Source of the DNA: Phoronis australis
Lineage: Eukaryota > Animalia > Phoronida
Length of the DNA: 64,000 nt
Reading direction: 5' to 3'
NCBI GenBank assembly: GCA_002633005.1
Contig: NMRA01000398.1
Span: 355,944-419,943, forward strand
Position numbers and translations under genes: made by a program. The notes under the pieces are model-generated. The model was not told where the DNA came from. It saw only the letters and a program-made list of their open reading frames with translations, and did no database searches. Of this stretch, positions 24,576 through 63,519 are shown one piece after another (position 1 is the first letter of the stretch; the number at the start of each line of letters is the position of its first letter).

Positions 24576-25467
24576 ATTAACAAGCTGGATCAGACTTTAG
24601 ATTTTGGAACTGGCTTCCAAATTTTGAAAAAAATACCACGGAGATTTTGTCATTGATCCGAGATATCATTTCACCTCATCTAAGTAATGGAGAAAGAATT
24701 CATGAATTTAGTAACAGGTATGACGAGCAATACGGCGGGCTAGCAAGGTCTAAATTCATGCGCGCTGTGTTATTTTATCAAAGGTCACACGGACGTAGCA
24801 CGTTCTTGCAAACCCGACGTTGAGATTTCACAGCCATACATGTAAGATTGAAAGTGATTTTAAGTTGGCACTTTTCCTATTCAAACGTAATTGGGTCCCT
24901 AATTAATTTGATAAGCGTTGCATCCCCGATAAATTATTCATTTACACAAAATATTGATGTAACAGGTCAAATTCATTCAGTAGCTTCCAAAATAAATTGA
25001 ATCTGTCAATTTCGAGTTTCCGCTCACAAAAATAACCCTTCATATTCGACTAGAATAGGTCTCAATTCTATCTAAACGTTCACATATTTTCGACAGGTGG
25101 TGCTCCACCCACGTTGTGATGTTGAAATAGGACAACTCCCAGTGCAAAGCCAACTAAAACAAAACGTTGATTTATTTCGACAAAAACGCAACTTAACTGC
25201 AAAATCTGTGTAGTTAACTTAAGGAATTGCTAAGAAGTAACTTCGTTTTCTTCTAATATTTATTCAGAATGGATGAAAACTGAGACCGTGATTTGTAGAT
25301 TTTAAAGCAAACATACTTTGACCAGCATGCACGTGGCAATACTTGAACGATTTACTAATTTATTTAAGAAATATTAATTTTTTGATGACGTCCGTTATTT
25401 GTTTAGAAACAGGCTTACAATAACTCAAATAACAACAGTACATGTATGTCATGACGTTCGGGCGTGC

Positions 25468-25598
25468 TTTCAGTAACGCTAGGACTTACGCTAGGACCTA
25501 GCTAAAATCTAGACAAAGCCACGTGTTCTCATTTACATGTAAAATACACGGCAATACCTCAAGTCTTACTGTTTAGCGAGGTCCCAACGTTACTGAAC
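25468..25598. mobile_element. Short MITE in the 3' UTR of the TLDc-ZP gene
   Basis: ttcagtaacgctaggac...gtcccaacgttactgaa inverted ends; same family as 44455-44591. Confidence 0.7.
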
Positions 25599-25611
25599 GG
25601 GAGGCATGTCT

Positions 25612-25796
25612 TTATTCTTTGTTTTCCGGGTAAGTGAAGTTACGTTTGGCAAAAAAGCCCGCCAAGCAAATGACCAGCAACAAAAGGAAAGCAAGAACTG
25701 ACGCCACAGCATAGAACACAGTGATGTTAACATATCCTCTACAGTCGTCGGTTTTGAAGTCCTCCTTGTATTGGTCTTTGTTTTCGGGCAATCCGT
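25612..25796 (-). CDS. Exon 13: transmembrane helix and short tail
   Basis: DGLPENKDQYKEDFKTDDCRGYVNITVFYAVASVLAFLLLLVICLAGFFAKRNFTYPENKE*. Confidence 0.88.
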
Positions 25797-28700
25797 CTGT
25801 AAATAGACAGTGACATTCGGTCCAAAACCATGCATTTACATAACTTGCTTAAAGAGAGGAAGACGAGTTTTTGGTTATGTAACTGAAGCGGCTTAAAATT
25901 GAACTTTTGATTTGGATCATTTATCGCTATAAAACGGGTCTCAATTTTCTCCTTACACCGATTAGAAAATATTTGCCAAAGAGCTGACATCTCGTTGCTT
26001 TTTGAGAATTTGCTCGGAGTGTTAGCAATAACGAATCGTATGTTCTTTGCAAACCCAAAAATCACGTCTACTCCGAGTACGGAACAAATGGATACTAATT
26101 CAAAATGGTTTAATGCCACGTAGGACCATTTCGACAAGTATTAATTTTACATTTAACCAAATAGGTGCTGAATTGCAATACATATAAGTATCAGATCAAA
26201 CTTTACGTGTAACTTCGAAGCTTTTCCGTGGAAAATATTTCCAGTCCCTATTTAATAGCCTCTTATGCAAAGGGGAACATTTTAAAAATAATTTCGAACA
26301 CCAGTTTAGAGAACCTGTCCTTAAGAAAAGTATTTTAAGTTTCGTATGAATCGAATCAGGCATTTCTGAGGTATGATTAGCCAAATAGACATTTTCTTGG
26401 TTTTTATATAATATTAACTGGGACATGTCACCAAATTTCATTTTGTATGAATGTTCAAGACGAAATCCAAAGAAAAATGTTATAGTTTCGAAATCATCAT
26501 TTCGTTTACAATTTTAGAATTTTTCATTAAAACCTAAATGTGATACTTTTGGTAACCTCATATGCAAAACTGGAACATTTGGAAAACAATTCCTGATTTT
26601 GTTTTGGAGAACATAAAAGCAAGTTCATTTTCTAAAAGTTTCATGTGAGTCTGATTATTCATTCCTACAATATGATGACATGCAGCATTTGGAGAGATGC
26701 TACAGAACTACATATAAATTTACCTTCGTTGGAGACTTTTAACTCCATCTCTAATACCTGTCTGACAGATTCACCGTCTGCAGACCTTCGTTTACGTCCA
26801 ACTGTGCTACACGTATTTCCGTTCGTCTGAAACAGCAGCGCGTAAAATTTACCAAATGCTTCATATAAATTACAAGTAAGCACTTTTGATTTATCTAGAG
26901 TCCTCCACATTTAATGCCAAATAACTTACATTATATGGTTTTACTAATAAATATTACCTGATTTTTTGTTTCTCGCGAAAACTCTACGGTGACTTCATAA
27001 ATGGTGGAGGTTTGGCCGTAAAACCTGAACGTTGTCATGTCAACACACATGGCTTTGCTCAAGGGATCGGTTGTGGGGAAACTGGGACCCACTTGAGTTA
27101 TGGTGTTGGATTTGCATCTGAAAAGATACAACAATGAATAACTGAAATCTACAATGCCGCACGCACAGTATATTTCAAGTGCTGTTCGTGTATACAGGGG
27201 CAATTTAAGGCTCCTTGAGAATTTTCAGTGGTTTTCCAAACTGGCTAAAGCAAATAATATATTCACACTACAAATGTTCCACAAAATTTTGCTTTCTTGT
27301 GATAGTTCTATATTGAGTACTTTGGTTAGACTTACCCTTCTTTTATGATGTAAAACTTCTTTCCGGAAGTATCAATTGTTATAACATCGACTATGAGAGC
27401 GCCTTTGTATGCTAAAACAAAATGTATTACAGGCCAGTGAATGGTGATCTTTAAGCAATATGGCTTGCCATGCAAATAAAACTGTTATCTTGAGGGCAAA
27501 AGGGTTGAAACGCAATAGTGACGAGGAAAACCAAGGGAGGGAGCCTTGTGAAAGTCAAAATGTTAGTTGCAAGGAAACGAAGCGGCTCACTGTAAAAAAT
27601 TAGGCTAGCAAAACATTATTCTTCGGATGTCAATTTGCGGGTATTACTCGAATGTGATGCCTAATAAACTCGTTATGGGTGTAACACAGTATACTTGTGG
27701 TACGCTCGTTTTGCACAGCGCGGATACATACGATTATCGTCACTAAATTTGGGCTCCGCACACAATTGGAATCGTACTCCCAGTGTAGCCAGTGAGATCG
27801 GTTGCCCACCGATGTAGGCGTGCAGAGAAGATGACGGTGGCGCAGCTTTTTCAGCGTTGAGATCTTTCCATTTTCTGAAACCAACAACTACGCAAATCAA
27901 TGCAATTACTTGGAACAGGTCTTATGTAGCATGTTGTGTGTTTGCGCCCTGGCCCTGGAATTCCTAGTCTCCAGTTATCAAGATAAGGCCGGAAATTGTT
28001 AACTAATTTTGCAAACTAGCGGCCACTGAAGTCATTGATCTAAAAACCCGCAGCAGGTTTTTTCGGTGTGTACTTTCACGTTTCCAATCCTCCTGAACGG
28101 GTACAGATGTTTTGCCGGGAAATAAATTAATCAATGCATAGTGCAGGTATTAAACAAGAACACGAAGTCTTTCGACTGCCATAGACAGCTGTCTTCCTGG
28201 GAACGTTCAGTTATGTAGACTGCCCCGTCTCTGTGTATAAAAAGGCATGGCGTCTGATGTAGACTGCTTCGAAATCCCTAATCCCGTAGGAATATACCTG
28301 TTTTCACTGTTCAAAATGCTAACAGATCGTGTCCGTGAACTGAAGACAACCAGCCTGACATAACAGATTTCTTAATGCTCGTCATTACGAGCTTTTAACT
28401 GATGACCAGTCTCTCCTTCATGTTTATAGTAAGCCTCACAGGAAGCACAATCCACTTGGTATAAAACAGCGCACTTTTGATCAGGAGGAATTATATCCTA
28501 GTGGGGCACGCTAACTGATCCCGTGGAGTGTTGACAAGCGAAACACGACATACATTTTTCTCTCTCCCTAGTACTAACATTAGTACTTTGTGGGACAGTT
28601 CCCTTCAGAGCCCAGTTAGGATACACACACGATGATAGAGCAGAATCAAGTAATTTAGACTCAGCGAGCCCGTCCTCTTCCTTACTAACAGCGTTCTTAC

Positions 28701-31700
28701 CCCTTTGTCAGGGAGTTCGAACAACCCCACGTTCTGATGAAGTTGGTGGTGGGAACTCAAGCGTAAAACTGATTATATTAAGCCAGTTTACGATGTGCAC
28801 CCCAAGATCCAGGTAGTCACCAGCTTTCCGGAGGACGAGAGTATCAAAGAACATACAACCTTCTTACGCTGTCTCATGAGTGAACTTCAAGGCAGACGGT
28901 TAGTTAACGTATCGTTTCCAGAGTCTATCGACAGTAGTATACAGCCAAGTAAGAGCTACAAATTCGCCACCATAGGGGGCGTAGCAGCGTCATGTTTCTA
29001 TGTGTAGTAGATACCATCAAAAACACAATATTTCGAGGAAGACAGACTTCCATGTAAGTCCAAAATCTCAATGGTCAGATACATTTGCTTGTTTGTCTTC
29101 GATAACCCCTTCCTGTACCATTTATACTTACCAAAATGATACAGTGGTGCTAATTGTCATGTGTAAACATTTCATTTCAGTCCCAGAAGCAGTCGTCATA
29201 ATTCCCACAAGAAAGAGAACTTTAACATGAGCGGAAAGCTCCTCAACAACAATTGCTAAGAGTTCGAAAACACCTTTCAGGGAAAGTGGAAATCTTTGAC
29301 AAATGGATCATCCATACTGAACATGTGAAAAGTCTGTCCTGTACAGATACATGTAACTTAACTACCACTGATGTTGTTAATGGGTGCGGTGCATTAATAC
29401 GTTTCAAACGAATATATGTTCGAATTACGCATCATCTGTGAGTCACAGTTTTACTTACATGTAGGTTAACCCTTGTCTGAGATCCCTTCCCAATATAAAA
29501 TTTATTTGTCAGATTAGAAGACCAGTTGATCACTAATTGCAGCTATGCACTCGGAAATAAAGGACACGCCACGCAAAATCACAACTGACCACGCCTTACT
29601 GGGGTCGAGCAATAACGTACTGTCACTTCTTGTCACGACCAAAAATCGCTTCTCATCTGAGCTGTGAATATTTTAACGATAATGAGATTTATGGCACTCT
29701 GACATAAATCCTATTATTTGGGCAAATACCATTATAGAGCCCTTCATGCTTCATATCCAACTCCTGGTTAGTTCCTACCAAGTCCGATGGTTGCGCTGTT
29801 TGTTCTTTGTCTCCAGCTTCCTGTTGGCCCAGCCTCAAGCAACAGTACATTCACTCGTAAGTTTTTCTAATTAGACAAGTTTATACTTCTCCCGCCCTCC
29901 CTACCCGGGGTACCACAAAATTTCACGTCAACCGTTTTCTACCTTTACCACGCTCCACCCCTTTTGCCGAACAAAATCTGCTGTTGGTTATTGTCGTTTT
30001 TACAGCCACTGCTCGTACCGTCTTCAAGCCCGGAGCGTGTTACCGCCAGGTAAGAACCGACGTCATTGGCTAGCGACCAGACCTGTACTTGAGCGTCCAT
30101 TACTGCAGCTTGCTTCTCTCCACCCCGGTCACAGCTCTCGTCACATACTGAGCCACAACACCACGTTCCTTACAATATCTCTTTTTATCACTCCGGCTGG
30201 TCTGCTCACTCAGCTTGTCCGGAACCTGCTTTGCAGGTTGTTATAGCCCAGTTGGCTGTTTGGTGTACCCACTTGGTACTTTATATGATATTTGCCCATT
30301 TGGCAGTTTGTACCCACTTGGTACTTGTTATTGAATTTGCCGCTTTGCTCGACCCAGTTGGTAGGCAATCGGCCAATACCCATTTGGTAGTATGTACCCA
30401 TTTGGTACTATGCTAACCTGTGCCACTTAGTATCCGATACTCAGTTACACTTTGGGTATCGGAAATGTGTGTGTTATCTCTTGTAATTAAGGAACCCATC
30501 TGGTTCCTTCTGTGAAATATTTATTTGTAGAGCTGTGACCCTGAAATTCCCAATACAACTTAAAATATTTATTTTTCTTGTTGTTTTATTTGTCCCCACT
30601 AAGTCAGCAACATCAATTTGTTTTTCAAAATGCGCATTTATTTTGCAATAATATGACGAGAGGAATGATAGTAAGATTGAGATTAGGAAGTGGCAGTGTT
30701 GAGTGTTCCGAAAGGACATCAGTGCTTGAACTTATAGCCTATGGTTTACCAGCGAGGTACTTACGCAAAAACTCTTAATTCCGCCGAGAGATTGCGAGAG
30801 ATTGGATCACCTTTGGTATTACATGAAATGTTAACGTAGCCGTCTTCAGGACTATCAAAACCCGGTAGGAGCTGCAGTCTCACTTGGAAACTCACCTCAC
30901 CGTTTGGCTGTAGGGAAATAATGTGAGACATTTACATGTATATAGTAGAATCTCGATACATGTTTAGCAGTGTGTGTTATGTTATGTGAACGGAAAACTT
31001 ACCCGGGGGCTTCTTTTTTCATCACTAACTTCTGCTCGTTATCCATATCTGTTGTAAAGTCTAGATATAATTCAGTCTATAAGCTAATTTTACTTTCATA
31101 AGATATCTTGCTCAATAGAAAAACAATTCGAAATGTCAAAACCGGCAACAAATGAACTTGTTTCCACTGGTTCGCAAAGAAGACATTCGAATAATAGGCC
31201 ATGGAAAATTTACAACATCTGGCATGGGTATGCTAAGATAATAGTCGGTCACATTGTAAGAGAGCCCGGTATGCAATGAGCACAGTATTACTTTCAACGT
31301 CATAATTAAAACCATCGTTGTATTTCCTTAAATGCTGTCCTTTATTCTCATTGTCCCACTTACATTTGCCATGATGTTGCATTTGGGAAGATTCCTAATG
31401 TCAAGGACGAAACTTCCACTTCCGTCGTCAGATGTAGAACAGCTTGAGTCGCCAGGAAATCCCTTGATGAAGGCTTGCCGATACGTCACTCCGTTTGAGA
31501 GACGTGCAGGAAACGTCACTCGCACTCCGTTGTTCCCACAAATATATTCACCTAAATAGCAGCGAATACGATAAAGCAGTTAGGAGGCCCCATGTGAAAA
31601 ATTGAACACAATCTCAGATCATGCGCGCAATATATTTGTTCAAGATCATTAAACAATTCAACAGACTACTTTAAACGCTATTCAAGTACATTCAAGTAAA

Positions 31701-34700
31701 GGCAACCCCGACTATGTCGGCACGAACCTTGAGTGTAGTTTCGTACGCCAGGTCTCCCTGTGGATGCAACTGAAACATATCGAGAACACATTACAAAAGT
31801 TTCCAAGATGGTAGCCGAATAACTCTAAATCACCAGCATTGGGAGCTAGCGATGGCTTCCCATTACACGAATCCAAAAGTTTGTTTTGCCATTTACAACA
31901 GTTAGCTTAAAGATAATCCTACCCATGCCAATTGATGTTGTATGGATTTCGCAAGCTATGCGACAGGCGTAAGCGCGCCGCATGGTTATCGCCTATGAGA
32001 CGGTATCACGTTTTCCTTTGTAGCGTCTTCGTTAGATATAACAAAACAGGTCGCACGGATATCGCACCTTGGGCGCCCATCAGCCGGTTACTGATAAGTG
32101 CTTACCATTGTTTTTTATGAGAAAGAAAAACAAAGTGAACAATATATATGCCTATGTACATGTATGCGACGAGCTTGCACTTTTGTTTCCCATGGGTAGG
32201 TTTATACTATCACCGCTCACAATTAGGCAACTTGACCTAGTGTTTGGGTACCGCGAAATCGGCCGCAGTGACTAAAGACACAATGCAGTTGTAGCCCATT
32301 ACAACGCACCTAGACGTCACAGGCATCTGGTGTTATAGTATTCTAGATTATCAGACCTGCCATAAGCAGACAGGGGATGACAAAAGAATTTTTAAAGGTT
32401 TCTTTTCAAAATCTTTAACTAGCATAATTGAATAATTTGTGAAAAGTACACGTGGTTATATTTCGGAATTTTGAAAATCGGAGACGAAATGTGGCTTTGT
32501 TTTCACATGATGTATCTCATTCTTTCTGCTGATTGAACAACGTTATTTCCAAACCCGAACCTGAGCAACTCAATGTTGAGGTAAGCCAAGTGCCATCGAA
32601 CAATTCTTGCCATGGCTACATCTAATCTCTCTTACTTGCTTTCACTGAAATTCAACACTTTCCTTTGGAGAAATATCAGCCGAAAAACCCGCAACGGAAA
32701 CGCAAACAACCTCGTAAATAGACGCATGTCACATCCTCACTATTGGATCACGCTATTTTCCAAGTTCGGCCCAAACATGTAAAGAATTTAAAGTTTTCAA
32801 AAAGACAGGGGATACGTAAATATTTCAACTAACCGCTAAAGGTTGGGCTTACTCTGTTGTCCCCATACGCGTACATCGAGAGATTAAAAGTAATCAAGTA
32901 ACTGAAATGCCATATCACGATTAAACCTTTCTATAAGATGCCATGCTACATGTATGTGATTGGCACCCGGTTAAGAGGACAACCAATTTACAATGTGTAC
33001 TATTTAAAGGTACCTGTACAACTCTGCTTGTTGCATTGCTGTGTCATCACTGAGTCACCTGAACAGTTCCGGAACTCATTCACACCCATAGAACTCGTAC
33101 ACGACCGTGTTCTTGATTGAATTCCTCCTCCGCAACTTTTACTGCAAGAGCCCCAGTCTGTCCACGTCGACCAACTAGCATCTGCCGACAGTAACAAAAA
33201 ACGTCAGATATCTTCATTTCCGGCATGCTTGACTCTGCATATAACTCCAAATAAACTTGTGGCTAAAAAGACGTTTTCAAATCAGGTGTGATGATATAAA
33301 GTGGTTCAAAATCGATTTTCTTAACATTAAAGTTGCGTCGGGGGACTCAACAGATTCATGTATAACGTATCGTTTTATTGACGTATTTTAAAAATTCCTT
33401 TTGGGGCTAATGGATCAGATATACATGGACATGTGTTGCTGATGCACTACTGAACAAGCAACAGAATAATCTCGTAAATATTCTCAAGATTACGTCACCT
33501 GCGTATGTAACAGAGTACACCTCGATGTCTGACCATTTGACACTTCTCCCACAACCCAATGACCCCCCGCTGTATGTGTGATCTCTTTCGTAGCAGTAAC
33601 CACTGGTGGCAAAGTACTTAGATGCTGCGTTGTAGTTGGAGGATCCGGTGAAGAACATCAGGTCATGGCCACCACCAAACGTCGGTCCGTAGCTCGAAGA
33701 GCGATAAAGAGCGTACTTGCTGTTTGATGATATCTGGTTAAACCGTTTACTGCTACATTCTGATCCGCATATGCGAAACAAAAAAGCCTTCAAGTCTGTT
33801 TGATAGCCATTACCTCCCCAGGACACAAATGCGTAACCCCCGTAGACGGTGCCTTTCGTAGCCTCGCTACCAATGGTGATAGTGGGACCTTTATTGTCGC
33901 ATAGTTGGTGGAAAACTGAGCTCACCATACCATCACCGGTCGCACGGTAAAGCAATTTGAATGCACTATTCGGTAAGTACTGGCGGACTTGCGACACCTG
34001 CTTATCGGACAACAGTTTCGAATTCTCGATGGATTCTGGAATACAATATAAACGTAAATAGTATAATCCAGTTAATACACGTAAATGTATGAAGCTGCCC
34101 AGGGCAAAGTTATTTAACAAAACATTGTTTTACAAGGACATCCCGAACATTATGTGACAAAATAAGCAAAGACAGTAATGTCGGCGTATGACCAACTGAG
34201 ACAAATCTGAAACCAAAGCCTAATTCAAGGTTTATCTTAAGATTGCGTTAGGACCGTTGCAATATTATGAACTCGCGTTCATCACATCGTGGGGGTTACT
34301 TTTTGGTAGTATCGTTTTCTTGGAGTTATTATCTTAAACCAGACCCATCAAATTGCGCAATTCTATTCAACGTTCATGATTCCATAGCAACATTTTATTG
34401 CCATGGCTTCCAGTCAATTTTATGTAAAACCGAGTTGGGGACCTAGTCAGGTGTATCATTGCTATGCGACGAGAAAATGGTCCACACCGTTGATGTGTGG
34501 TGTTAACCAAAGTCAGCTTAAGCATCCAATGGCACAGGAGTACACTTAAAAAAAAGAGGTGACGAGCCAAATCAAATTCGAGGAGTACTCTCACCAGAAT
34601 AAAGGTTTTGTCGAGATCCACTTGTGTTCCAAATGGTTAAATCCCCTTTGAAAAAAACCAATAACATGTTAACCTTTTGAACTTTTTGGGGGTACATTGT

Positions 34701-37700
34701 AAGTATTATCCGAGTACTGAGTTGCTGGATATCGTGTTTAAACTGTCAAATTTCATGACAGCCAAGGTTACCTTAGGAATAAGGTGTAACATGGCATTAA
34801 GTTGTCATTTACATTGCATATCCACCTGCAGTGTAAATAGACTCCATATCCAGCAAATCCAGACAGCTAAGTTCCATACCTATTGCGTTGCTCATATTAC
34901 AAATCTATGCAGGTGAAGATAATTAGGCGCAGATTGCATCCCTTAGTAGTCAAACAGCTGCAGTTAATAAACCGAGTTGTAGTGACCCGATTTTTTCGAT
35001 TTGCACACCGACTTCGAGTATTTTTTACGTTCTACATATCAAAATTCTTGAAAATGTGTACTTTTTCAAAACGCGGATTTATACTTTGATACTGTAGGCA
35101 AGGCTGTTTATTACACTTCACTCAATTTTAAAGCTCTATTAACTGTGTACGTACACGGAAACACGTTTCCAATGAATAACGCTCACCGAAACTAAGCCCC
35201 AGACGCCTCCGGCTTAGCGTTGCGCACAATAGTGGACGCTGTATCTTGATCTCGCCAATACGTTGGTTAATGTACAAGTCAGTGTAAAGGAGATATTTAG
35301 GTGGCGAACCTGAAAGTCAAGCCTCTCAACAGCCACGGAACCAAATAAAAAACACTTTCAAGCTAGAAATTTGTGTGATTTTTGACGGAAAACTTCAGAG
35401 CAACTGCTGAAGCGTTTTGGAGAAAAACAGTGCATTTCAGTTCAAATTAGCTCATAATCTCCAAGCTTCATGGTCGACGGTTTTGTCTTACCCTCAACGC
35501 CATACACCTCAATGTCAGTCCATTTGACACTAGAACCACAGCCCACTGATCCCCCATCAAACGTGTTGTCGCCCACGGAGCAGTAGCCATTGGTAGCAAA
35601 GTATTTAGATCCTGCGTTGTAGCCGAAAGTTCCTTGATCGAAGAACGACAAGTCATGACCACCACCAAATTCAGGTCCGTTGCTTGTATGGTCGTAAATA
35701 GCATACTGCCGTCTATCTGATTTCTGGTTAAATTTCCTACTTGTGCATTCCGGGCCACAGAGGCGTAACAGGAAGGCGTTGCTGTCGGAAGCGTACCCAT
35801 TGGATCGTCTCCAAGATCTAGATGCATATCCAGCGTAGACCGTGCCTTTGGTAGCCTCGCGTCCTACGGTGAGTGTGGGACCTTGCTTGTCACATAAAGA
35901 ATGAAAGGCATTACTTGACATTCCGTCGATTGTGGCGCGGTAGAGTAACTTCATCTTCTTGCCTGGCATGTATTGCCTTAGCTGTGTCAGTTGCTGGGTC
36001 GACAAAAGGTTGGAGTCTTCTATGTACTCTGAAATTGTTAACACGATGAAAAATGAATTACTGTACCATAACAACCGTGATCTCATATCCTGGGAAATCA
36101 TTGTTATAAGTAATCGCCATCCTTGAGAGGAAGCAGTGTGGACTAGTGAGGAAATTGCCCGCCTACTTTACTCAAGTCGTGTGTTCGAGTCCCACTGGGA
36201 CACACTGCTAGAACACTGAATCAGGTCTTAAGCTCTTCAGTTCGGTTTTAACTTTATATTAATAAAGCATAAAAATGGTTTCAGGTAATCTGTGCAATGG
36301 GCCCACCAGATCGTACTTTTGTTAAACACGGTCCTTAGAATTACATAGCTAATCACTAATCTTCTTCACTGAGCGGGAGTGAATTTACTCTCATCTTGGG
36401 ACACGTGTATTCGCTTGGTACTAAACGCAGGGGCATAACAAAAACTACTAGGGTAATAACTTCAAGATTCAAAATCCACAACCCATTGGCTGCCCGTGGG
36501 ACGATGAGTGGAGGCACGTGACGTCCGCTCCCAGTTTGACAATTCCGCTACGAAAATGTGCAAGAAGTTCCCCGAAAGGGCACTTGAAACATCCAGGCAA
36601 TGGACTTTAAGACACATGTGAAACTGAAATCGTGTACAAAAAAGTTAAAGATCGATTCTTTGTGGCTCGTTTTGTTGTCTCGGACAACAACTGGATTAGG
36701 TTGGAATAATTATCCATAATTATGCAACTATAACCATCTCCTAAAATATAAACCTCAATTATCTGGAAAAGACATTGCTTTTCACTTTTCGGTCATAACG
36801 CGATGGGTTACTTGCACAATATCAACCGTAAGTGCCAGAAGCCAGTCAGAATGATGGGCAAAACCGTTGACTTATCTAGCCAGTTTATAAAACCTAGGAG
36901 GCATTAGACGAATATATCGAATTTGAAGACTTTGCCCTTTGAAAGTAGAGACATTATCATACTGACGTGTACAACCTCTCTGGGTTTCGTTGACTTATGT
37001 TAAACATAAATCTCGCCTGGTTTCAATGAAACAATGGATGTTTTCACCTATTTTTATGTTATCGTTGGGTGGATTTGTGTTTGTTATCAACAAATATACA
37101 TAATTGTTTTTGAAGCATCAAAACTGAAATAGGAAACCGATGACATTTGAAAGCTGTAAAACCAAGTTCTCCAGTATACACTGTCCAAAATGATACACAG
37201 TCCACAAGCAATAATATGAAGCTGTTACCAGTAAATATTGTACCGGAAAGCGCTGGTGCGAAGACCATAACAACCTTACGAAACCTGTCTGACTCATGTT
37301 TCGTGCACACTTCAAGTTTTAATATTTCGCTTGAAGCTACATCGCTCTGCCAGATTTACCTTCAATGCTGTACGTCTCCACGTCGACCCACTTAACGTTT
37401 GATCCACAGCCAACTGAGCCCCCATCATACGTGTTGTCGGACCCAGAGCAATAGCCATTCGTAGCAAAGTATTTAGAAGCTGTGTTGTAGCTGTATGATC
37501 CAGAAAAAAACATCAGGTCGTGGCCGCCACCAAACGTGGCTCCATTGTTTGAATGATCGTAGACAGTATAAGTACTTCGAGTTGACATAAGATTGAACTT
37601 TGCACTAGTGCACCTTGACCCACATAAGCGGAACAGGAAAGCTCTAGTGTCAAGACCGTAATTATTGCTACTTTTCCAAGGTCTTGACGTAAACCCGCCA

Positions 37701-40700
37701 TAGACTGTGCCTGTGGTCGCCTCCCGACCAATAGTTATCGTGGCGCCAACTTTATCGGCGTTTTGGTGAAAAGCTGGTGCCGACATACCATCTCGCGTTG
37801 CACGGTACTTCAACTTCACACTTTTGTCTGGTACACGCATGTATTTTTGCAACTGTGTAAGATGTTGAAGTGTCAAGAGTTTAGAGTCTTCTATAAATTC
37901 TGAAAATAGAAAATGGTTGACATGAACTTGTCATAATTTATACAACTACGACGTTGTTAAGAGTATGGTCAGCATCTCAAAAAGGAAACGTCCGACAGTC
38001 AGAATAAAGATGGAGCTTACGACACAATAATACTTATCACACATTCAAAGAAAGCGCCGACCTACACTGTACACAAATACCTCCTTAAATGGGAGACAAC
38101 GAAATTTTTACATGAGCTATACCGGGAAACAAAATCAAAACAAACAAGACACCACTAATAATAACAACATCAAAACACCAAAAGTAGACAATGTGTATTG
38201 TGGTATAAACGCTAATGAAATTGCGACTTCGATTCACAGGCTTACCTATGAGGCCGTACACTTCTACGTCCACCCATTTAACACCCGATCCACAGCCAAG
38301 CGATCCCCCGTTGTAGCTGTGACCCCCACTGTGGCAGTATCCATTGGAGGAAAACTGCTTAAGTGTACTGTCGTAATTTTGAGAGCCGGAGAAGAAAAAC
38401 AAGTCATGGCCGCCACCAAATGTTGGACCATAGCTTGCACCATCATAAACGGCGTAGTTTTGTCCCGTTGATGACTGCGATTGTTTTGCATTGGTGCATT
38501 CTGAGCCACATAGGCGGAATATGAAGGCGTTTTTATCGGCCGTATAACTGTTTAGTCCTTTCCAAACTGTAGCTCTGTATCCGCCGTACACGGTGCCTTT
38601 AGTAGCCTCGCGTCCTATGGTGATGGTAGACCCTTGCTTGTCACACAGGCTGTGAAACTTGGAAGCCGTCATACCGTCACGTGTGGCTCGGTAAAGCAAT
38701 CGAAATTTCTTCTCTGGAACACTCATGTACTGTCGTAGTTGGGATAAATGTCGACTTGTCAATAACTGCGAGTCCTCGATGAACTCTAGAACACATGCAG
38801 AACATGAAACTGTTAGTGTTTTAGATGATCAAAGAAATTTTGCATGGATATTGTGATTTTGATTCCACTTAGGGTTATAACAAATAATTGACATCGACAA
38901 CTCAACTGACACGTTCGATTCAAGTAAAACTGCATATTGGTAAAGTGTACTGTAATGCTTTCTAGCTAATATCGTTTTCATAAAAACAAAAATGTGACGT
39001 TTATCAATGCTCCATAAAAAGAACAACAAACCAGTTTAACCGTATATTAATGTTTGATAATACTTTAAGACATGTTCCGTTGAAGACGACATTCCATTCT
39101 TACGCAAAAAAAAATAATTAAAAGTCTATTTAATTGCCGACCACCAGTCAGATAGTGGATGCCCTACCACGTAAGGATGCTAAGTGTTAAATGTAAAAAG
39201 GCAATGAACTAAGGAATAAAAAAGCTTCCTAAATACTCCGGCCAATTATACCGTATGTTCACCACGTTATTTGACATCATCACACGAATCTTTGTCTTAC
39301 TTCAAAATTCCTGAGCTTCATTTTGACCCTAAGTTTCTGTAACAGCGACGCAATTTCAAAACTTAATTTTGAATTAGATGTCTAGCAACTGGTGCATGAG
39401 CTGCAAGGACTAGAGAGAACATGTTTTTTTATTTATTTCCAGTTAGCATGCGATGTTATTCGTACCCAAAGAGGCCACGCACATTATTCCATGAACAAAA
39501 TCTAAAGTTCAAATATACCGTATATTTGAAAAGTAGTTGAATTAACTAATTGCAGATTACAACGACTAGTTATACGATCAATGTAATGAATGCTATGGTG
39601 GGTTTGTCTGTTGATGATATATGAGTAAGGACCGGCAAATCATCTTGGTGTACCATCAGTGACAACTTATTTTGGCCTGAAATGAGTCTTTTCCGTTGAA
39701 CGTAATTGTCAACCTTCGTAAAGCCAATGTTTCCTCAAATAACTCGTTGAAGTTAAGTAGGAGCTTATCCACCAGTACATGTATGTACCAATAGTATAGA
39801 CAACAAGTCAGTAAAATTATATTTTTAGAATGTGGAAAGCCTGCATAATTTGATTTTTGACTGACCAGCAATCGGGTATTGATTAGGTCATGTTACTGTC
39901 TTTTTATTTGTAAAATTTACAAAATAAATGTTCATTCAAATAACAGTACCGAAAACACAGCCAAATTTGTTTGCAAAATTGGTTGATACACGACACCTAT
40001 CGTTATTAACAATCTTTATTTCGTTTTGCTAGTATCCTAGGCAAAAAGTTCGACACTCAACAGGACATTGGTAAAGCAACAAACCAAGAGACGTGATTAA
40101 AAGACACGCGATATTTTGAAACATACTTGTCTAATTCTCAATCATTGGAAATAAAATGACTCAGTAATACCGCCACAGAGCAATAGCTGGAGCCATACAC
40201 AGTGGGACACGGCAGCTGTGAAATGCTGCAAAGAATGACAAATGAAGGGGGAGAACAGGAAAATCACTCAAACAAGTGTAACGTGCAGCACGACCCTGAT
40301 TATTCAAAACAGGCTTCTCAAATGCAATCAAAAAGTACTCCAATACTTTCAATCGCAGCATATCGTGCTCTACGTACCAAATTGACATGTTTTCCGCAAC
40401 TTCTTGACGGGTGATTTTACATTCGTGACATTGCACAAAATGTTCTTGGATTTTGAAGATGCATAGATAACCGAAGGGAAAGACAGCGAACAGTTTGACC
40501 AATGTAACATTGCTTAACATTTTAACATACAGTGGCAGCTCTACGTTTTCAGTAAGGGGGGTTTAGGATTCGAGCTAATCCGAGGCGCGTAGCGCCGAGC
40601 GCAAGGAAGATCGGAAGGAGGTTTCCCCCTCCCTTGTAAGATTTTTTGTGATTTTTAGAAGCTGATTTCGTTTTTCTTGCGAATTTTTTTCAATTTTTAT

Positions 40701-43627
40701 TTTAGATCCTGTCCCGAAGGGTGGTTTGAACCCCCTGAACCCCCGTAGATCAGCCTCAGAATACAAACTCATAAACAACACTGCACTGGGCAACGGGACA
40801 GACAATGGCTTTAGAAATGTTATTTTTCCATGACCAAGTTGGAGGTCTTCCTATTCCGAATTTCACTTGTTGTAAATATTCAAGGTTAAATGTCAAAAAA
40901 CCTGTTACAACTGTTCATGCATGTAAAGCATAGTACATGAACGTTTGGTGTAATTTCAATCAAGCATTTCTGGGATATGATGTTCCGAAGTTAGTCAAAG
41001 TCAGGAGTAGGTTGACAGTAGTTTTGGTTCTATAGATTTTATTTTAATGTTCCATTTGTTTACGAGCAGATAGCACTTGATGATGTAAATTGTTTACAAT
41101 TGAATATTAAAGAACATTCTAGGACAAAGACCCATGGGGTCAAGATAGTGATGACGCATGTCGTAATTTGTTTGTAGTTGAAAACTAGAGGTCATTCTAG
41201 AAGAAAGTTACGTCATACAAGTGATTAGTAAATAGAAAAATGATCTGAAACATTATGTTTATATTTACAGAAATACGCAACGTTCTAGAGTGTTTTTGTC
41301 TAGAAAACTTCCAGACAGAACGTGTTTACCAGTGAAAGGTTTCAGAACATTTTAAGAAGCTACAAACATTAGGGCATTTGTGTTAGAGTTAGATTTAAAT
41401 TGCGTTGCAGTAACAGATTCAGTAGTTATTGCGTTAGTCAATAGAGAGCCAGCTAAAGAGACAGTAGGTTATTGAATCAGCGAGTTTAACAGTTGCTGGA
41501 AGTGTCTCAGAAGTTCATCACAAGTCAAGGCTTCGCAGCACTGGCTGGAGCATAGAACACTCATTACGTTGGACGTTTTGAGTTTTAATATGAACATACG
41601 ATCGAGATTAATAAAATGATTAACTTGAGCCAGTCTTCAGGCTATCATCACACTGAAAGCTGTCAGCACTGGTCGGTTACCACCTGCGCCCATTCACCGA
41701 TCAGGTTCTTTGCAACCCTTCAATTAAACGTGCTTTTGAATCCTTGACGCACAATTGCGTATTATAGCCTTTCAGATATTTCTTAGAAAATAACACTTAA
41801 TTAGCACAGTCGCCATTAAAAAGTGAGCCTCTTTTCAGGTTTTAAAAACAATATATTCTGCGCATAATCACAGTCCAAAGCGTGATTTTTCGCATGCCTT
41901 GTTATATTTATGGCTCTGATTCATTGTTTTTTAAACCCAAAGAGAGGCTCACTACTAAAATGGCGACTGTGTGAATAAGGTCTGTACGTAAATTTGTAAG
42001 CGGTCAACAATTGCGACGTCGTATTTAAAGAGTGTAATCTCACTATCAAAGTGCAAGGATTTGGTTCTGAGGATTTTTCTTTTACTCTCAATCAAATGAG
42101 ATAAAGCACTGATGCATTATTATTGTTCACTTTTGATGACAGGTATTCTCGTTAAGTTGTTCGATGAAAAGTAAACGAAAACGAAGAAACGGTTACCTAG
42201 TAAAGACCGTAAACTGAGAATCCGAAATTCATCCTAATCAACAAATGGACTAAAGAAAGTTTAATGTTCTTAATGGTAAAAGCGGTCACGCCCCAACTGT
42301 CTGTAAATGGCCACGAAATACCTCGTATAATTCCTCCTTTGACAACTCGTACATTTTAAATATAAAAATGGCTTCAAAGTAATGCTATGAGTCGCCATGT
42401 GAAATATAGATACATTTATCAGTGTACAGAACATTTAAATTTGGATATTTGAAAAAAAATTCCACGACTGTTGACAATTGCATTCCTGTCGGTATTTTCA
42501 TTAGAGGCTAACCAAGAAAGCAACAGCATTTTTTCAAAAAGTTTCACTGAATTGTTAAAGAGGCCTGGAACGCGGTAAGCAGACTAAATTGCAATATGGA
42601 AAGTGGTTCTCTCCCACTGAAGCAAAATTGAACCTGCTGACCTGGTAGTTTTATTCTATAATTTGACGTGGTAATTACAACAAAATCTGGAACTTGAGAA
42701 TTTTAAACAGATTACTTCCAAATACTTTTAAGCTTTAACGTTGCAATATTGTTGTCAACAGTTGACGCTTTTTTACTTTAACATGGTTTACGACCTGTGT
42801 TTCAGCCGGAAACCAGGTTATTTTTGCGCTTGTTTCCTGGATTATACAGTACTTACTAAGCCAGAGTTTGCCAATTAGAGCCTACTGAAGTTCAATTTAA
42901 ACCAATTTGGTTTGTGATACAATCATGAACTTTGATCCCGGTTCCAAAGTTTCCAAAGCCTCGTGCCCTTGCATTCCCTAACAATAATCGCGGAAAACCG
43001 TGTCCACAGAAGAGTCGTAGTGGTAAGACAGCTTGTTTTTCTCGAATGGACGCGTTGTTTAAAAATTTAAAAATTTTATGAAAACTCAAAAATCGTTCCC
43101 ACTCTAACTCCGAACAGTACAAAACCCATAAAATTGTACAAAACAAGAATTAAACAACTAGAATGTCATTTCCGCTTCATTTTTTTCAATATAAAATTAC
43201 GTAAACGAGTTTCAAGAATATTATAGAATCTCAACGACTTGAAATTCCTTTAAAGTATACAAAAATTTAAGTTTCAACAATAATCAGCAGAATGCGTTTT
43301 TCTGCCGTTAAACTCATAATGTCCTTTTAAACACCAAATCATTATCAGTTAAAGGCAGGAAAACGCATTGTTTTGTGTCACAACTTACATAATTTTGTTT
43401 TTGGAGGACTTTCATGGAAACAAAGAAACTATTTTAAAATGAATTGTAGTTCCGCTTGTTTCATATAGCAGCTTACACCAGGGTTTATTTTTGTGATACA
43501 CCAACTCAGGTCAGTACATTCAAATTCTCAAAATTCAACTAGCAGAGAAATATTATATCAACCTACCTTCGGCGTTTGAGAATCTCGCGAGAAGACACGC
43601 GATGAAGCACCAGTGTGGGAGATTCAT
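25612..43627 (-). CDS. 13-exon gene for a type I membrane/secreted protein: signal peptide, 4x TLDc, TSP1, ZP module, furin site, TM (1126 aa)
   Basis: Exons 43627-43567, 38785-38246, 37899-37360, 36028-35492, 34035-33499, 33181-33014, 31551-31364, 30907-30765, 27874-27732, 27411-27336, 27117-26958, 26826-26724, 25796-25612. All introns are GT-AG, the phases chain without a break, and the total of 3381 nt ends in TAA. Confidence 0.85.
26724..26826 (-). CDS. Exon 12: furin site and external hydrophobic patch
   Basis: TNGNTCSTVGRKRRSADGESVRQVLEMELKVSNE; phase 0-1. Confidence 0.88.
26958..27117 (-). CDS. Exon 11: ZP-C
   Basis: CKSNTITQVGPSFPTTDPLSKAMCVDMTTFRFYGQTSTIYEVTVEFSRETKNQ (ZP-C GC...FxF pattern); phase 2-0. 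Confidence 0.88.
27336..27411 (-). CDS. Exon 10: ZP-C
   Basis: PYKGALIVDVITIDTSGKKFYIIKEG; ttttag| acceptor and |gtaagt donor; phase 1-2; conserved in the paralogue. Confidence 0.85.
27732..27874 (-). CDS. Exon 9: linker and ZP-C start
   Basis: KWKDLNAEKAAPPSSSLHAYIGGQPISLATLGVRFQLCAEPKFSDDN; differences from the paralogue exon at 61379-61521 are mostly synonymous. Confidence 0.88.
28190..29400 (-). mobile_element. Degenerate Penelope-like retroelement (RT C-terminus and GIY-YIG endonuclease)
   Basis: Minus-strand fragments EEGCMFFDTLVLRKAG, SSHHQLHQNVG, YQVDCASCEAYY..GETGHQLKARNDEH and EAVYIRRH. Confidence 0.7.
30765..30907 (-). CDS. Exon 8: ZP-N domain, second half
   Basis: PNGEVSFQVRLQLLPGFDSPEDGYVNISCNTKGDPISRNLSAELRVF (fourth Cys); ctacag| acceptor and |gtaagt donor; phase 0-2. 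Confidence 0.8.
31364..31551 (-). CDS. Exon 7: ZP-N domain, first half
   Basis: EYICGNNGVRVTF...AFIKGFPGDSSC...FVLDIRNLPKCNI (three Cys); tttag| acceptor and |gtaagt donor; phase 1-0. Confidence 0.85.
33014..33181 (-). CDS. Exon 6: thrombospondin type-1 repeat
   Basis: [25 protein letters not shown]...C...C...C; ggcag| acceptor and |gtacct donor; phase 1-1. Confidence 0.93.
33499..34035 (-). CDS. Exon 5: TLDc domain 4
   Basis: LLYRATGDGM...FHQLCDNKGPTITI...YGPTFGGGHDL...DIEVY; 537 nt, phase 1-1. Confidence 0.92.
35492..36028 (-). CDS. Exon 4: TLDc domain 3
   Basis: LLYRATIDGM...FHSLCDKQGPTLTV...GPEFGGGHDL...DIEVY; 537 nt, phase 1-1. Confidence 0.92.
36129..36300 (+). mobile_element. tRNA-derived SINE head, degenerate
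   Basis: A-box-like TGGACTAGTGAGG and B-box GTTCGAGTCC; no intact cloverleaf. Confidence 0.5.
37360..37899 (-). CDS. Exon 3: TLDc domain 2
   Basis: YRATRDGM...FHQNADKVGATITI...YGGFTS...AFLFRL...GATFGGGHDL; 540 nt, phase 1-1. Confidence 0.92.
38246..38785 (-). CDS. Exon 2: TLDc domain 1
   Basis: LLYRATRDGM...FHSLCDKQGSTITI...YGGY...AFIFRL...YGPTFGGGHDL...DVEVY; ttctag| acceptor and |gtaagc donor; 540 nt, phase 1-1. Confidence 0.92.
40530..40760. mobile_element. Small non-autonomous DNA element (hAT-like MITE); related remnants at 44806-44872 and 56336-56485
   Basis: cagtggcagctctacg...gggggg start and cccccgtagatcagcct end; GC-rich gaggcgcgtagcgccgagc core. Confidence 0.55.
40978..41650 (+). 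mobile_element. Solo-LTR-like element in intron 1
   Basis: TGATG...CATCA termini, AATAAA at 41610-41615 and repeated TTCTAGAA-type motifs; no clear TSD. Confidence 0.45.
41795..41982. mobile_element. Palindromic MITE
   Basis: cacagtcgccattaaaaagtgagcctctttt...aaaaacaat is mirrored by attgtttttt...agagaggctcactactaaaatggcgactgtg. Confidence 0.75.
43567..43627 (-). CDS. Exon 1: signal peptide MNLPHWCFIACLLARFSNAE
   Basis: ATG, hydrophobic core and S-N-A cleavage-like end; donor GAAG|gtaggt is phase 1, matching the first TLDc exon; TATA/Inr immediately upstream. Confidence 0.78.
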
Positions 43628-43663
43628 CACGATAGTGATCGCCTCAAATGTCTTTCCAAAACC

Positions 43664-43785
43664 ACTGAGAAATTTACGATTCCTTCGTTATTTATAACAA
43701 GACGTGTGAAAAGAGCCGCTCCCGTTCAGGAAAATTATAAAAAATGTCGTGCAAGTGTTTTTTTCGCCCACGTGTGATGACGTCA
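43664..43785 (-). promoter_or_regulatory. Core promoter of the TLDc-TSP1-ZP gene: TATA box and Inr, with upstream E-box and CRE
   Basis: Minus-strand TATAAA at 43696-43691 lies 30 nt before the A of an Inr TCAGT (43668-43664); CACGTG at 43769-43774 and TGACGTCA at 43778-43785. Confidence 0.6.
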
Positions 43786-44454
43786 ATGCGTAAATGGGTA
43801 CATGTATAGAAAATGGGTGCCGGGGTAGAGTGAATAGAAATTCACACTGGCAATAAAATTTGAATTTCAAATGCGCAAGAAAAGGAGTGCTATTCGATTG
43901 TGAGGCGAATCAATGTTTTCGCGTCCTGTCGATCAAACAATTTCTTAATAATAACAGCGGAAAGCGAGGATAGGGTTTAAGTTTCATGAGCATTCATACA
44001 CGTTTGTGCCTTCAATTTAATTAATGCTTTAAAAACTAATACAAATTTTCATTGGTGTTGATTTCATAAAAAAGTTTCTTATCGTACAATTTTGTATATT
44101 TAGGTACACGTACATACAGTGGTGTTTTTTTCTGAAATTAAGCGTTTTTTTCCCAAAGAACTTCAATTCGTTTCGTCAAGTATTTTGAATACAGACCAGT
44201 GAATCGAAATTTTGCTTATATGTGCAGGTGGGTGTCAAAGCACTGATACACGGCTTTACATTGTTGTGGATTCGGGTAGACGCAATGATCTCGCCAAAAG
44301 TACATGTACACAATTTAGATCTTGCAAAACATTTTTTCAGCAAGTAAACCGGGATTTATATTTTCCTTGGATACAACTTTTATTTTGATTGCTTATGTTG
44401 ACACTCACACTTGCAAAAAGTTAAAAACACTGTTTTAGTGGTTAGATCATTGTA

Positions 44455-62229: not shown

Positions 62230-62900
62230 CTGAGAGGGGGCATGGTGCCAGATGAAGACAGCTTCCCTGATCTTTGTTGGAATGTACCTCATCTAACTAT
62301 TCAAAATGCCAGCAGATTAGCAGCCAATAAATAAGGTCGTGTTCTTGAGCTGAAGACAACGAGTCGGTCCTCACCGAATTCTGCTCCTCAATACGGGCTT
62401 TTACTGTAACTGATGACCAGACTCTCCAATACAGGAAGCCTCACAAGAAAAACTATCCAGCTGATAAACAGCACTACACTTTGGTTCAGGGCTACAGTAT
62501 GTATATCCTTGGGGGACACTAGTGGATCCCGTAGAGTGTTGCCAAAGAGTAAACCTGCGCCCGTATTGTGTTTGATTCTGCAGTCTCTCTGAGATGCCTT
62601 GTAAGTATGGTAACACCGTCTTGCATTCACCTTTCTTGCACTCCTCAGTACTTCCAGTAGGTTCTCAGTCAGTTATCCGCAGTCTCAGTTAGTATACCCA
62701 AACGAGGACGTTTTCTTATTTTAATAAGGCTTTGCTGGTTGAAATTGGGGTTTAGCGCATTCGGCTGTTGATGTTGACATATGTTTTAAATAAATGTAGG
62801 CCGCTCCACATCGCTGAATTAAGGAACACGCGTTTGGATATGGGTGACATCTGTAAGTCACAATTTTACCTTGGCTGACCCTTGTATAGTACACCCCTTA
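62230..62900 (-). mobile_element. Degenerate Penelope-like GIY-YIG fragment in the homologous intron of the paralogue
   Basis: LPYLQGISERL, GNTLRDPLVSPKD, VYQLDSFSCEASCIGESGHQL and KIREAVFI. Confidence 0.75.
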
Positions 62901-63519
62901 CTGTTATAAAATTCGTCAGATTAGAAAACCAGATAATTGATCACTGCTTGTAACCATACCCGACATATAAATGACACGCCGTGGAAAATCTAAACTGATC
63001 ACGTCTCACTGGCCTCCAGCAATAACGTATTGTCACATCTTGTCAAGATCAGTACCCCAGTTTTAATCTTTTTACTCGCGGAAATTTCCATGATAGCAAG
63101 TAGCAGCTTAAATTCAAGAAAATAACTACGGTTTTTAAAAATTGACATGTTTCGGTGTCATTTATTAAACACCATCCTCAGAAGTCATAATACAGTGGCC
63201 ACCTAGCTAGGCCCAGCAACAAGTAACGAAGCACAGATACAGTCAGTTACAGGGAGTGACAATGAACTAGACCAACAATGACAACCNGTGTGTGTTATCT
63301 CTTGTAATTAAGGAACCCATCTGGTTCCTTCTGTGAAATATTTATTTGTAGAGCTGTGACCCTAAAATTCCCAATACAACTTAAAAAAATATTTATTATT
63401 CTTGTTGTTTTATTTGTCCCCAATAATTTATATCACAATATTAGCTTCGAATGGCAAATACGACCGTGCAATAACCCATTTAGTTATCTCACTAGTGAGA
63501 CATCATTTTGGCGGGAAAC

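What the first reader, a model, noticed from the sequence alone, without database searches (positions are those of the whole stretch)
25612..43627. Extracellular TLDc array fused to a TSP1-ZP-furin-TM module
Seen: splicing 13 GT-AG exons gives one unbroken 1126-aa frame with a signal peptide, four TLDc domains, TSP1, ZP-N/ZP-C, RKRR, a hydrophobic patch and a TM helix. Established: characterised TLDc proteins (OXR1, NCOA7, TBC1D24, TLDC2, MEAK7) are intracellular and linked to oxidation resistance and V-ATPase binding, while ZP proteins are shed by cleavage and polymerise into egg coats, cuticles and mucus filaments. Inference: this protein would display TLDc domains on an extracellular ZP filament, an architecture I do not recognise. 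TLDc may have been recruited as an extracellular binding, lectin-like or redox-protective module.
Basis: partly seen in the sequence, partly recalled or inferred. Interest (0 to 1): 0.88.

Follow-up and report, generated by a model that had tools for sequence, protein, structure and literature searches.

The report
TLDc heads on a ZP stalk
An animal gene joins four TLDc domains, a module so far studied inside cells, to a likely zona pellucida (ZP) module with a furin-type site and a membrane anchor, so it would display TLDc heads on an extracellular filament; RNA shows the TLDc-to-ZP splice in this gene family, but what the heads bind is untested.

Summary
The gene is real. The 13 GT-AG exons give an open 1126-aa frame. 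RNA adds a missed 42-nt exon, making 14 exons and 1140 aa. Four TLDc domains and TSP1 pass Pfam cut-offs. ZP-N is supported by Atlas features. ZP-C rests on motifs and layout and lacks the Cys5-Cys7 pair.

Most ZP-exon reads come from paralogues, one with a different upstream exon, so the full four-TLDc transcript is not shown.

The TLDc repeats are single phase 1-1 exons, are under purifying selection, and carry two cysteine pairs almost absent from 521 other TLDc domains.

No TLDc+ZP protein was found among 323 fetched relatives or in the paper searches. Apparently extracellular TLDc itself recurs, unstudied, in cnidarian, choanoflagellate and unnamed proteins, including TSP1+TLDc in Nematostella.

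Verdict: a new variant of ZP apical-matrix proteins, likely a family with swappable heads on a constant stalk.

The parts
43567..43627 (-). Exon 1: start codon and predicted signal peptide (20 codons, phase 1 donor)
   Evidence: in-frame stop and no Met upstream; joint to 38785 in 5+1 reads
38246..38785 (-). Exon 2: TLDc repeat 1, phase 1-1
   Evidence: Pfam TLD 79.4 bits; model pLDDT 91.5, Foldseek to NCOA7 TLDc E 1.3e-7, TM 0.74
37360..37899 (-). Exon 3: TLDc repeat 2, phase 1-1
   Evidence: Pfam TLD 68.8 bits; low read depth in X2
35492..36028 (-). Exon 4: TLDc repeat 3, phase 1-1
   Evidence: Pfam TLD 80.1 bits; contig depth in X4, no sense-strand depth in X2 on its 3' half
33499..34035 (-). 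Exon 5: TLDc repeat 4, phase 1-1
   Evidence: Pfam TLD 71.3 bits; X4 contig joins 33499 to 31769 at depth 443.6
33014..33181 (-). Exon 6: TSP1 repeat, phase 1-1, skipped or absent in the X4 form
   Evidence: Pfam TSP_1 45.5 bits; low depth in X2 and X3
31728..31769 (-).
   Evidence: joint in 3/14/70 reads and a contig; 113 X3 reads leave here into a sequence not in the window
31364..31551 (-). Exon 8: ZP-N first part (Cys 813, 846, 866 in 1140-aa numbering)
   Evidence: Atlas 0.93, 203 of 256 features, ZP-N/CUT_N clusters; joint in 4/9/90 reads
30765..30907 (-). Exon 9: ZP-N second part (Cys 900)
   Evidence: joints in RNA; ZP-N motif by eye, recalled
27732..27874 (-). Exon 10: interdomain linker, predicted internal hydrophobic patch, start of predicted ZP-C (Cys 957)
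   Evidence: joints in 3/5/90 and 7/9/67 reads; conserved in gene B
27336..27411 (-). Exon 11: predicted ZP-C, middle strands
   Evidence: joint in 11/8/99 reads; gene B copy
26958..27117 (-). Exon 12: predicted ZP-C (Cys 993, 1016)
   Evidence: joint in 9/34/101 reads; not recognised by Pfam, PDB sequence search or Atlas
26724..26826 (-). Exon 13: Cys 1051, RKRR furin-type site (1056-1059), predicted external hydrophobic patch
   Evidence: RKRR kept in gene B; joint in 13/21/94 reads
25612..25796 (-). Exon 14: juxtamembrane linker, TM helix, short tail, stop
   Evidence: hydropathy 2.92 over 19 residues
59153..61521 (-). Gene B: tandem paralogue, last five exons (same lengths and splice sites); its 5' part lies beyond the window
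   Evidence: exon identity 619 of 667 vs non-exon 1414 of 1834; dN/dS 0.25

Best explanation
The gene encodes a predicted type I membrane precursor with four TLDc domains, a TSP1 repeat and a likely ZP module, which would be cut by furin at RKRR, shed, and polymerised into an apical matrix or mucus filament that displays the TLDc domains as likely ligand-binding heads. Shown: the open spliced frame, the TLDc and TSP1 domains, the ZP-part splice joints, one TLDc-to-ZP joint, and a second tandem copy. Inferred from known ZP biology: cleavage, release of the external hydrophobic patch, polymerisation. Inferred from the anatomy: the TLDc domain was turned into a phase 1-1 exon module, gained two likely disulfides, was duplicated four times, and sits in a slot that paralogues fill with other exons. 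The heads most likely recognise a protein or glycan at the body surface (matrix partner or microbe), not V-ATPase.
For: Open 14-exon frame, all introns GT-AG. No hydrophobic first-exon candidate between TLDc1 and the ZP exons, so no sign of a second gene start. RNA joints for exon 1-TLDc1 and TLDc4-like to linker to ZP-N, with matching contig depths 443.6 and 413.8 in X4. ZP-N Atlas match, with 10 of the 10 best family-bearing hits sharing a family or clan. Order IHP, RKRR, EHP-like strand, TM as in ZP precursors (PMC3543715 passages). Purifying selection: A vs B dN/dS 0.25; repeats 0.10-0.28 in 5 of 6 pairs, one saturated. Cys pair 92/96 in 4 of 4 repeats and 0 of 521 other domains; pair 150/164 in 4 of 4 and 2 of 521. 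TLDc recurs among classic extracellular modules in other lineages.
Against: No transcript of the full four-TLDc form is shown; five internal joints are not among the 15 printed. At 15 of 18 listed sites the ZP-exon reads carry gene B's letter, mostly in all reads, so they come largely from paralogues or diverged alleles. The TLDc-to-ZP joint rests on one contig with 30 letters on the short side, and X4's TLDc4 contigs differ from the window by small deletions. ZP-C was not recognised by Pfam, PDB sequence search or Atlas and lacks Cys5-Cys7 and CysA-CysB by my alignment by eye. The signal peptide core is only moderately hydrophobic. Nothing here identifies a ligand.
Confidence: 0.62

Rival explanations
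1. The protein is a non-polymerising cell-surface receptor or adhesion protein: the ZP-like part acts as a stalk or co-receptor scaffold (as betaglycan and endoglin do, recalled), and the TLDc heads stay near the cell or are shed as a soluble decoy.
For: The predicted ZP-C has only four cysteines in an unusual pattern and was not recognised. Other TLDc arrays sit in long membrane-anchored FN3 proteins such as P0209.
Against: RKRR and the strand after it are kept in both gene copies, as polymerising ZP precursors need. The cytoplasmic tail is only about a dozen residues. Loss of Cys5-Cys7 and of CysA-CysB each has precedent in real ZP modules (PMC7456536 passages).
Confidence: 0.18
2. Gene A as assembled is a weakly expressed or decaying member of the family; the working forms have one TLDc or another domain before the ZP part, and the four-TLDc plus TSP1 protein is rarely or never made.
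For: Estimated exon depth in X2 is about 1-9 on TLDc1, 2, 4 and TSP1, 0 on half of TLDc3, against 17-20 on ZP-N exons; in X3, 0-2.5 against 114-127 (rough, from bin means). ZP reads are mostly B-like. The only TLDc-to-ZP joint skips TSP1.
Against: All 14 exons are intact with good splice sites; the repeats are old (58-60% identical to repeat 1) and conserved; exon 1, three TLDc exons and TSP1 have sense-strand reads in X2. Tissue of origin is unknown.
Confidence: 0.12
3. The TLDc heads protect the surface matrix against oxidants, acting as a redox buffer through their cysteines.
For: TLDc proteins protect cells from oxidative stress (PMC5614904, PMC8608904 passages). The family-wide Cys at profile position 47 is kept in 3 of 4 repeats.
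Against: The review passage reports no enzymatic activity for OXR1 or the TLDc domain, and isolated NCOA7, OXR1 and TLDC2 TLDc domains bind V-ATPase, a partner absent outside the cell. Repeat 2 has Ala at position 47; the new cysteines come in pairs, as structural disulfides do.
Confidence: 0.05
4. Two neighbouring genes, a secreted TLDc-array gene and a ZP gene, were joined by the reader.
For: Depth is much higher on ZP exons than on TLDc exons in X1-X3, and 113 X3 reads enter the linker exon from a non-TLDc sequence.
Against: That sequence is not in the window, so it belongs to another copy; no separate first exon was found before the ZP part; X4 splices TLDc4-like to the linker exon.
Confidence: 0.03

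Closest known systems
Invertebrate ZP-module apical matrix proteins (cuticlin / LET-653 type; Pfam ZP-N PF23344, CUT_N PF25057)
   Same: Signal peptide, N-terminal accessory modules, four-cysteine ZP-N, ZP-C-like region, basic cleavage site, hydrophobic patch, TM helix, short tail (PMC3543715 and PMC7456536 passages).
   Different: The accessory modules are TLDc repeats, not the vWFA, LDLa, EGF or PAN domains named in those papers. The predicted ZP-C lacks Cys5-Cys7 and CysA-CysB and has an extra pair (957, 1016), by eye.
Characterised TLDc proteins (OXR1, NCOA7, TBC1D24, mEAK-7, TLDC2, yeast Oxr1/Rtc5)
   Same: Same fold: 16 Foldseek matches at E<=0.001, and all 15 printed are TLDc structures, TM 0.59-0.75; Pfam TLD.
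   Different: 14-20% identity; those have one TLDc (domain figure legends) and bind V-ATPase inside the cell. Here four tandem copies follow a signal peptide and carry two extra cysteine pairs.
IFI44-like proteins of molluscs and amphioxus (N-terminal TLDc)
   Same: Best single-domain scores to the repeat profile, 116-136 bits; 31-41% identity.
   Different: No hydrophobic N-terminus, one TLDc, no ZP. The tree does not place the window repeats as their sister: the deep branching is unresolved.
Uncharacterised secreted or membrane TLDc proteins: Nematostella LOC5500053 (TM, 3 TSP1, 2 TLDc), Oculina LOC144631135 (PAN, EGF, 3 TLDc), Acropora EGF-TLDc, Salpingoeca PTSG_13098 (FN3, 2 TLDc)
   Same: TLDc, often repeated, among extracellular modules; TSP1 next to TLDc in Nematostella.
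   Different: No ZP module; TLDc is mostly C-terminal; their TLDc domains lack the two cysteine pairs and do not group with the window repeats, which suggests separate recruitment.

Membership tests
TLDc domain (PF07534) | Pfam score above the curated cut-off | tested here: met
   68.8-80.1 bits vs 24.5 in 4 of 4 exons
TLDc domain (PF07534) | TLDc fold | tested here: met
   repeat 1 model pLDDT 91.5; Foldseek NCOA7 TLDc E 1.3e-7, TM 0.74
V-ATPase-binding TLDc proteins (OXR1/NCOA7/mEAK-7) | Cytosolic location and V-ATPase binding | tested here: inconclusive
   exon 1 with a predicted signal peptide is spliced to TLDc1, which argues against it; binding not tested
ZP-module proteins | ZP-N domain with four cysteines | tested here: met
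   Cys 813, 846, 866, 900; Atlas 0.93 to ZP-N/CUT_N clusters, families on 11-31% of members, so a strong lead rather than proof; no Pfam hit on half-domain exons
ZP-module proteins | ZP-C domain recognised by profile or fold | tested here: inconclusive
   single exons not recognised; the spliced domain was not scanned or folded
ZP-module proteins | Typical ZP-C disulfides Cys5-Cys7, Cys6-Cys8, CysA-CysB | tested here: not met
   four Cys (957, 993, 1016, 1051); by eye only Cys6-Cys8 is kept. Each loss has precedent: CUTL-28 and NompA; CUTL-24b and ZP3 (PMC7456536 passages), so this is not a strict requirement
ZP-module proteins | Consensus cleavage site, external hydrophobic patch, TM anchor | tested here: met
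   RKRR 1056-1059, alternating hydrophobic strand from 1069, TM from 1106, kept in gene B; the patch assignment is by position and recall
ZP-module proteins | Signal peptide | tested here: inconclusive
   hydropathy 1.91 over 11 residues, S-N-A before the first module; no predictor available
ZP-module proteins | Polymerisation after cleavage | not testable with these tools
   needs expression and microscopy
TSP1 repeat (PF00090) | Pfam score above cut-off | tested here: met
   45.5 bits vs 21.6
Lectins | Lectin fold or sugar-binding site | tested here: not met
   galectin and ficolin chains appear only at E>=0.2, TM<0.3; sugar binding itself not tested

The most novel reading that the evidence does not exclude
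This is a diversified family of surface-coat proteins in which interchangeable phase 1-1 heads (several TLDc repeats, TSP1, or another cysteine-bearing exon) are swapped onto a near-constant ZP filament stalk, and TLDc is an unrecognised extracellular recognition module, recruited independently in several lineages, here used to sense or trap microbes or partners in mucus.
Probability: 0.3. Interest if true: 0.8.

Novelty: new variant of a known kind. Interest (0 to 1): 0.58.

Why it matters
TLDc is known from cytosolic V-ATPase regulators tied to neurological disease, and its own biochemical activity is still unclear. A disulfide-bearing, four-fold repeated TLDc on a shed ZP stalk cannot work on V-ATPase, so it implies a second, extracellular ligand for the fold and gives small, soluble single-exon domains to test it with. 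It also adds a new head type and an unusual ZP-C cysteine pattern to ZP matrix proteins. The surprise is tempered because apparently secreted TLDc proteins already sit unnoticed in public annotations of corals, a sea anemone and a choanoflagellate.

Tried and rejected
A first guess for exons 9-10 (30147-29949, 27874-27695) broke the frame with 18 stops and was dropped. No whole genome is held for this window, so paralogues outside the window could not be counted. The run search listed no RNA holder by index; the four runs came by species label. A closer read view of the TLDc joints was not obtained, so those joints stay open. Single-exon ZP tests that gave nothing: Pfam, 0 of 6 exons; PDB sequences, 0 of 3 exons with a ZP hit, only chance matches; word search with exon 12, 2 candidates and none scored; Atlas on exon 12, recognition 1925 and no ZP cluster. 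A fold from a 4-sequence alignment was poor (pLDDT 56.8) and was replaced by a 48-sequence one. Trees of 149 and 56 domains did not resolve the sister group of the repeats; the first is a quick tree, the second a hand-picked subset. An IFI44-like origin is therefore only a lead. No orthologue appeared among the best 150 of 10,193 representatives. Rfam found nothing credible at 28000-33000. Earlier-findings look-ups by sequence and place were empty.
Full report
OBSERVATION. The window is animal-type DNA of about 39% GC. Pfam gives TLD on four exons (68.8-80.1 bits, cut-off 24.5) and TSP_1 on a fifth (45.5, cut-off 21.6); none of the six ZP-region exons hit a ZP model alone. A model of repeat 1 from a 48-sequence alignment has pLDDT 91.5. 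It has 16 Foldseek matches at E<=0.001, and all 15 printed are TLDc structures.

RNA. Three raw-read runs (about 18-19% of each read) and one contig set of the same species label were laid on 25300-43800. It keeps the frame, giving 14 exons and 1140 aa. One X4 contig (depth 443.6, 30 letters on the short side) joins TLDc4 directly to this exon, skipping TSP1; the next contig runs on into ZP-N at depth 413.8. This is the evidence that TLDc and ZP exons share a transcript. The joints TLDc1-2, 2-3, 3-4, TLDc4-TSP1 and TSP1-linker are not among the 15 printed; 6 more were not displayed.

WHOSE READS. At 15 of 18 listed variant sites in the last five exons the reads carry the letter of gene B, the tandem paralogue at 59153-61521, mostly in all reads. 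X3 and X4 differ from each other and from both genes at some sites. The list shows only the best-supported differences, so it is biased to such sites. In X3, 113 reads enter the linker exon from a sequence that is not in the window and reads in frame as a short Cys-bearing exon end. So the joints document the family's exon structure more than gene A itself, and at least two kinds of head are joined to the same stalk. Rough exon depths in X2 are 4.4 (exon 1), 2.9, 1.2-8.9, 0, 1.1-2.3 (TLDc1-4), 3.7 (TSP1) and 17-20 (ZP-N) (from bin means). Gene A is likely transcribed at a low level in these samples.

ONE GENE. No hydrophobic ATG-to-phase-1-donor piece lies in any intron between TLDc1 and the ZP exons; two such pieces lie in intron 1. 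TLDc1-4, TSP1 and the linker are all phase 1-1 exons, the class typical of shuffled extracellular modules (recalled), so any can be skipped or swapped in frame. Gene B's five exons have the same lengths and splice sites, 619 of 667 identical bases against 1414 of 1834 outside exons, and dN/dS 0.25. The repeats are 58-60% identical to repeat 1, with dN/dS 0.10-0.28 in five of six pairs and saturation in the sixth.

ZP MODULE. The first ZP-N exon scores 0.93 (203 of 256 features, recognition 2358) to clusters carrying ZP-N and CUT_N, and the ten best family-bearing hits agree. Those families are on 11-31% of cluster members, so this is a strong lead. Four cysteines (813, 846, 866, 900) match the ZP-N count in PMC3543715 (passages). 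The ZP-C assignment rests on order and recalled motifs: hydrophobic strand at 936, GC at 993, an F-x-F strand, Cys 1051, RKRR at 1056, a hydrophobic strand from 1069 and TM from 1106. The one ZP-C exon tried in the Atlas was not recognised. By eye Cys5-Cys7 and CysA-CysB are absent and a new pair 957/1016 is present. PMC7456536 (passages) reports loss of Cys5-Cys7 in CUTL-28 and NompA and of CysA-CysB in CUTL-24b and ZP3.

EXTRACELLULAR ADAPTATION. All four repeats carry two cysteine pairs (positions 92/96 and 150/164). Among 521 TLDc domains from 323 fetched proteins, 0 have the first pair and 2 the second. Coverage at position 164 is thin (96 of 283 domains), so the second count is weaker. 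That they form disulfides is inferred.

RELATIVES. No orthologue was found; best single-domain scores are 116-136 bits, led by molluscan and amphioxus IFI44-like proteins. None of 203 proteins with precomputed Pfam labels shows a ZP family. Of the 120 new proteins among the best 150 of 10,193 representatives, I scanned 30 and none has ZP. The gene's own ZP part finds nothing among all 323 (best E 0.12), a test that would miss distant ZP modules. Apparently extracellular TLDc does recur: Nematostella TM-TSP1x3-TLDcx2, Oculina PAN-EGF-TLDcx3, two Acropora EGF-TLDc proteins, Salpingoeca FN3-TLDc, an unnamed 4500-aa FN3-TLDc-TM protein and unnamed Stig1-TLDc proteins. The four repeats form their own clade (100/100) apart from these, with the sister unresolved (56 hand-picked domains). 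Two unchecked earlier notes report secreted TLDc in Naegleria and in a marine bacterium; I did not test them.

LITERATURE. Full-text searches gave 0 papers for 'TLDc domain' + 'zona pellucida', 'TLDc' + 'ZP domain', 'TLDc' + 'thrombospondin' + 'coral' and 'TLDc' + 'lectin' + 'carbohydrate-binding', and one unrelated paper for 'TLDc' + 'signal peptide' + 'extracellular' + 'secreted' (listing only). (listings only) showed nothing on this architecture. A 2026 ZP review has no occurrence of 'TLD' or 'thrombospondin' (PMC13361971, passages). PMC5614904 has no occurrence of 'extracellular' or 'secreted' and reports no enzymatic activity for TLDc (passages). PMC8608904 shows V-ATPase binding by isolated NCOA7, OXR1 and TLDC2 domains (passages). 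The library lacks most subscription papers, and supplementary proteome tables were not searched and may list such proteins.

MECHANISM. Most likely (0.62): secretion, furin cleavage, release of the hydrophobic patch and polymerisation into an apical or mucus matrix, with TLDc heads as ligand-binding modules. Rivals: non-polymerising receptor or decoy (0.18), minor or decaying member of the family (0.12), redox shield (0.05), two genes (0.03). The ligand is unknown; lectin activity has no structural support.

VERDICT. A real, previously undescribed architecture as far as these searches reach: a new variant of ZP apical-matrix proteins. Interest 0.58. It is lowered by the unproven full-length transcript, the unconfirmed ZP-C and the other secreted TLDc proteins, and raised by the swappable-head family and the testable extracellular TLDc.

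Noticed in passing
window 29679-30598 (intron of gene A): A 920-nt unit transcribed from the + strand at depth 340-500 in X1 and X2, with end-to-start joints in 243 and 206 reads: a circular RNA or tandem copies elsewhere. No credible Rfam match; it holds short palindromic repeats, and its last 135 nt recur at 63288-63422 in gene B.
   Followed up: partly
window 28324-28800, minus strand: Degraded piece that looks by eye like a GIY-YIG endonuclease of Penelope-type retroelements (recalled motif); part is shared with gene B at 62334-62545.
   Followed up: no
window 2-1333 (+) and 15047-16438 (-): Two long single-ORF amiloride-sensitive channel (ENaC/ASC) genes, Pfam 168 and 188 bits, 74% identical in DNA and inverted to each other.
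   Followed up: no
window 59153-61521 and beyond 64000: Tandem paralogue (gene B) with the same last five exons; its head domains lie outside the window and may differ from gene A's.
   Followed up: partly
window 19748-21944 vs 22404-24576: A 2.2-kb direct duplication at 92% identity around a run of 226 N, possibly an uncollapsed haplotype at an assembly gap.
   Followed up: no
window 53600-55100 (+): Frame-broken ORFs that look by eye like the end of a LINE reverse transcriptase; the one ORF scanned had no Pfam hit.
   Followed up: no
P0154, P0125, P0072, P0090, P0145, P0209, P0122, P0024, P0207: Uncharacterised proteins with TLDc among extracellular modules (TSP1, EGF, PAN, FN3, Stig1, laminin G), suggesting repeated recruitment of TLDc outside the cell.
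   Followed up: partly
window 25731: 42 of 132 X3 reads have a 3-nt insertion in the last exon, a further sign of several paralogues or alleles.
   Followed up: no
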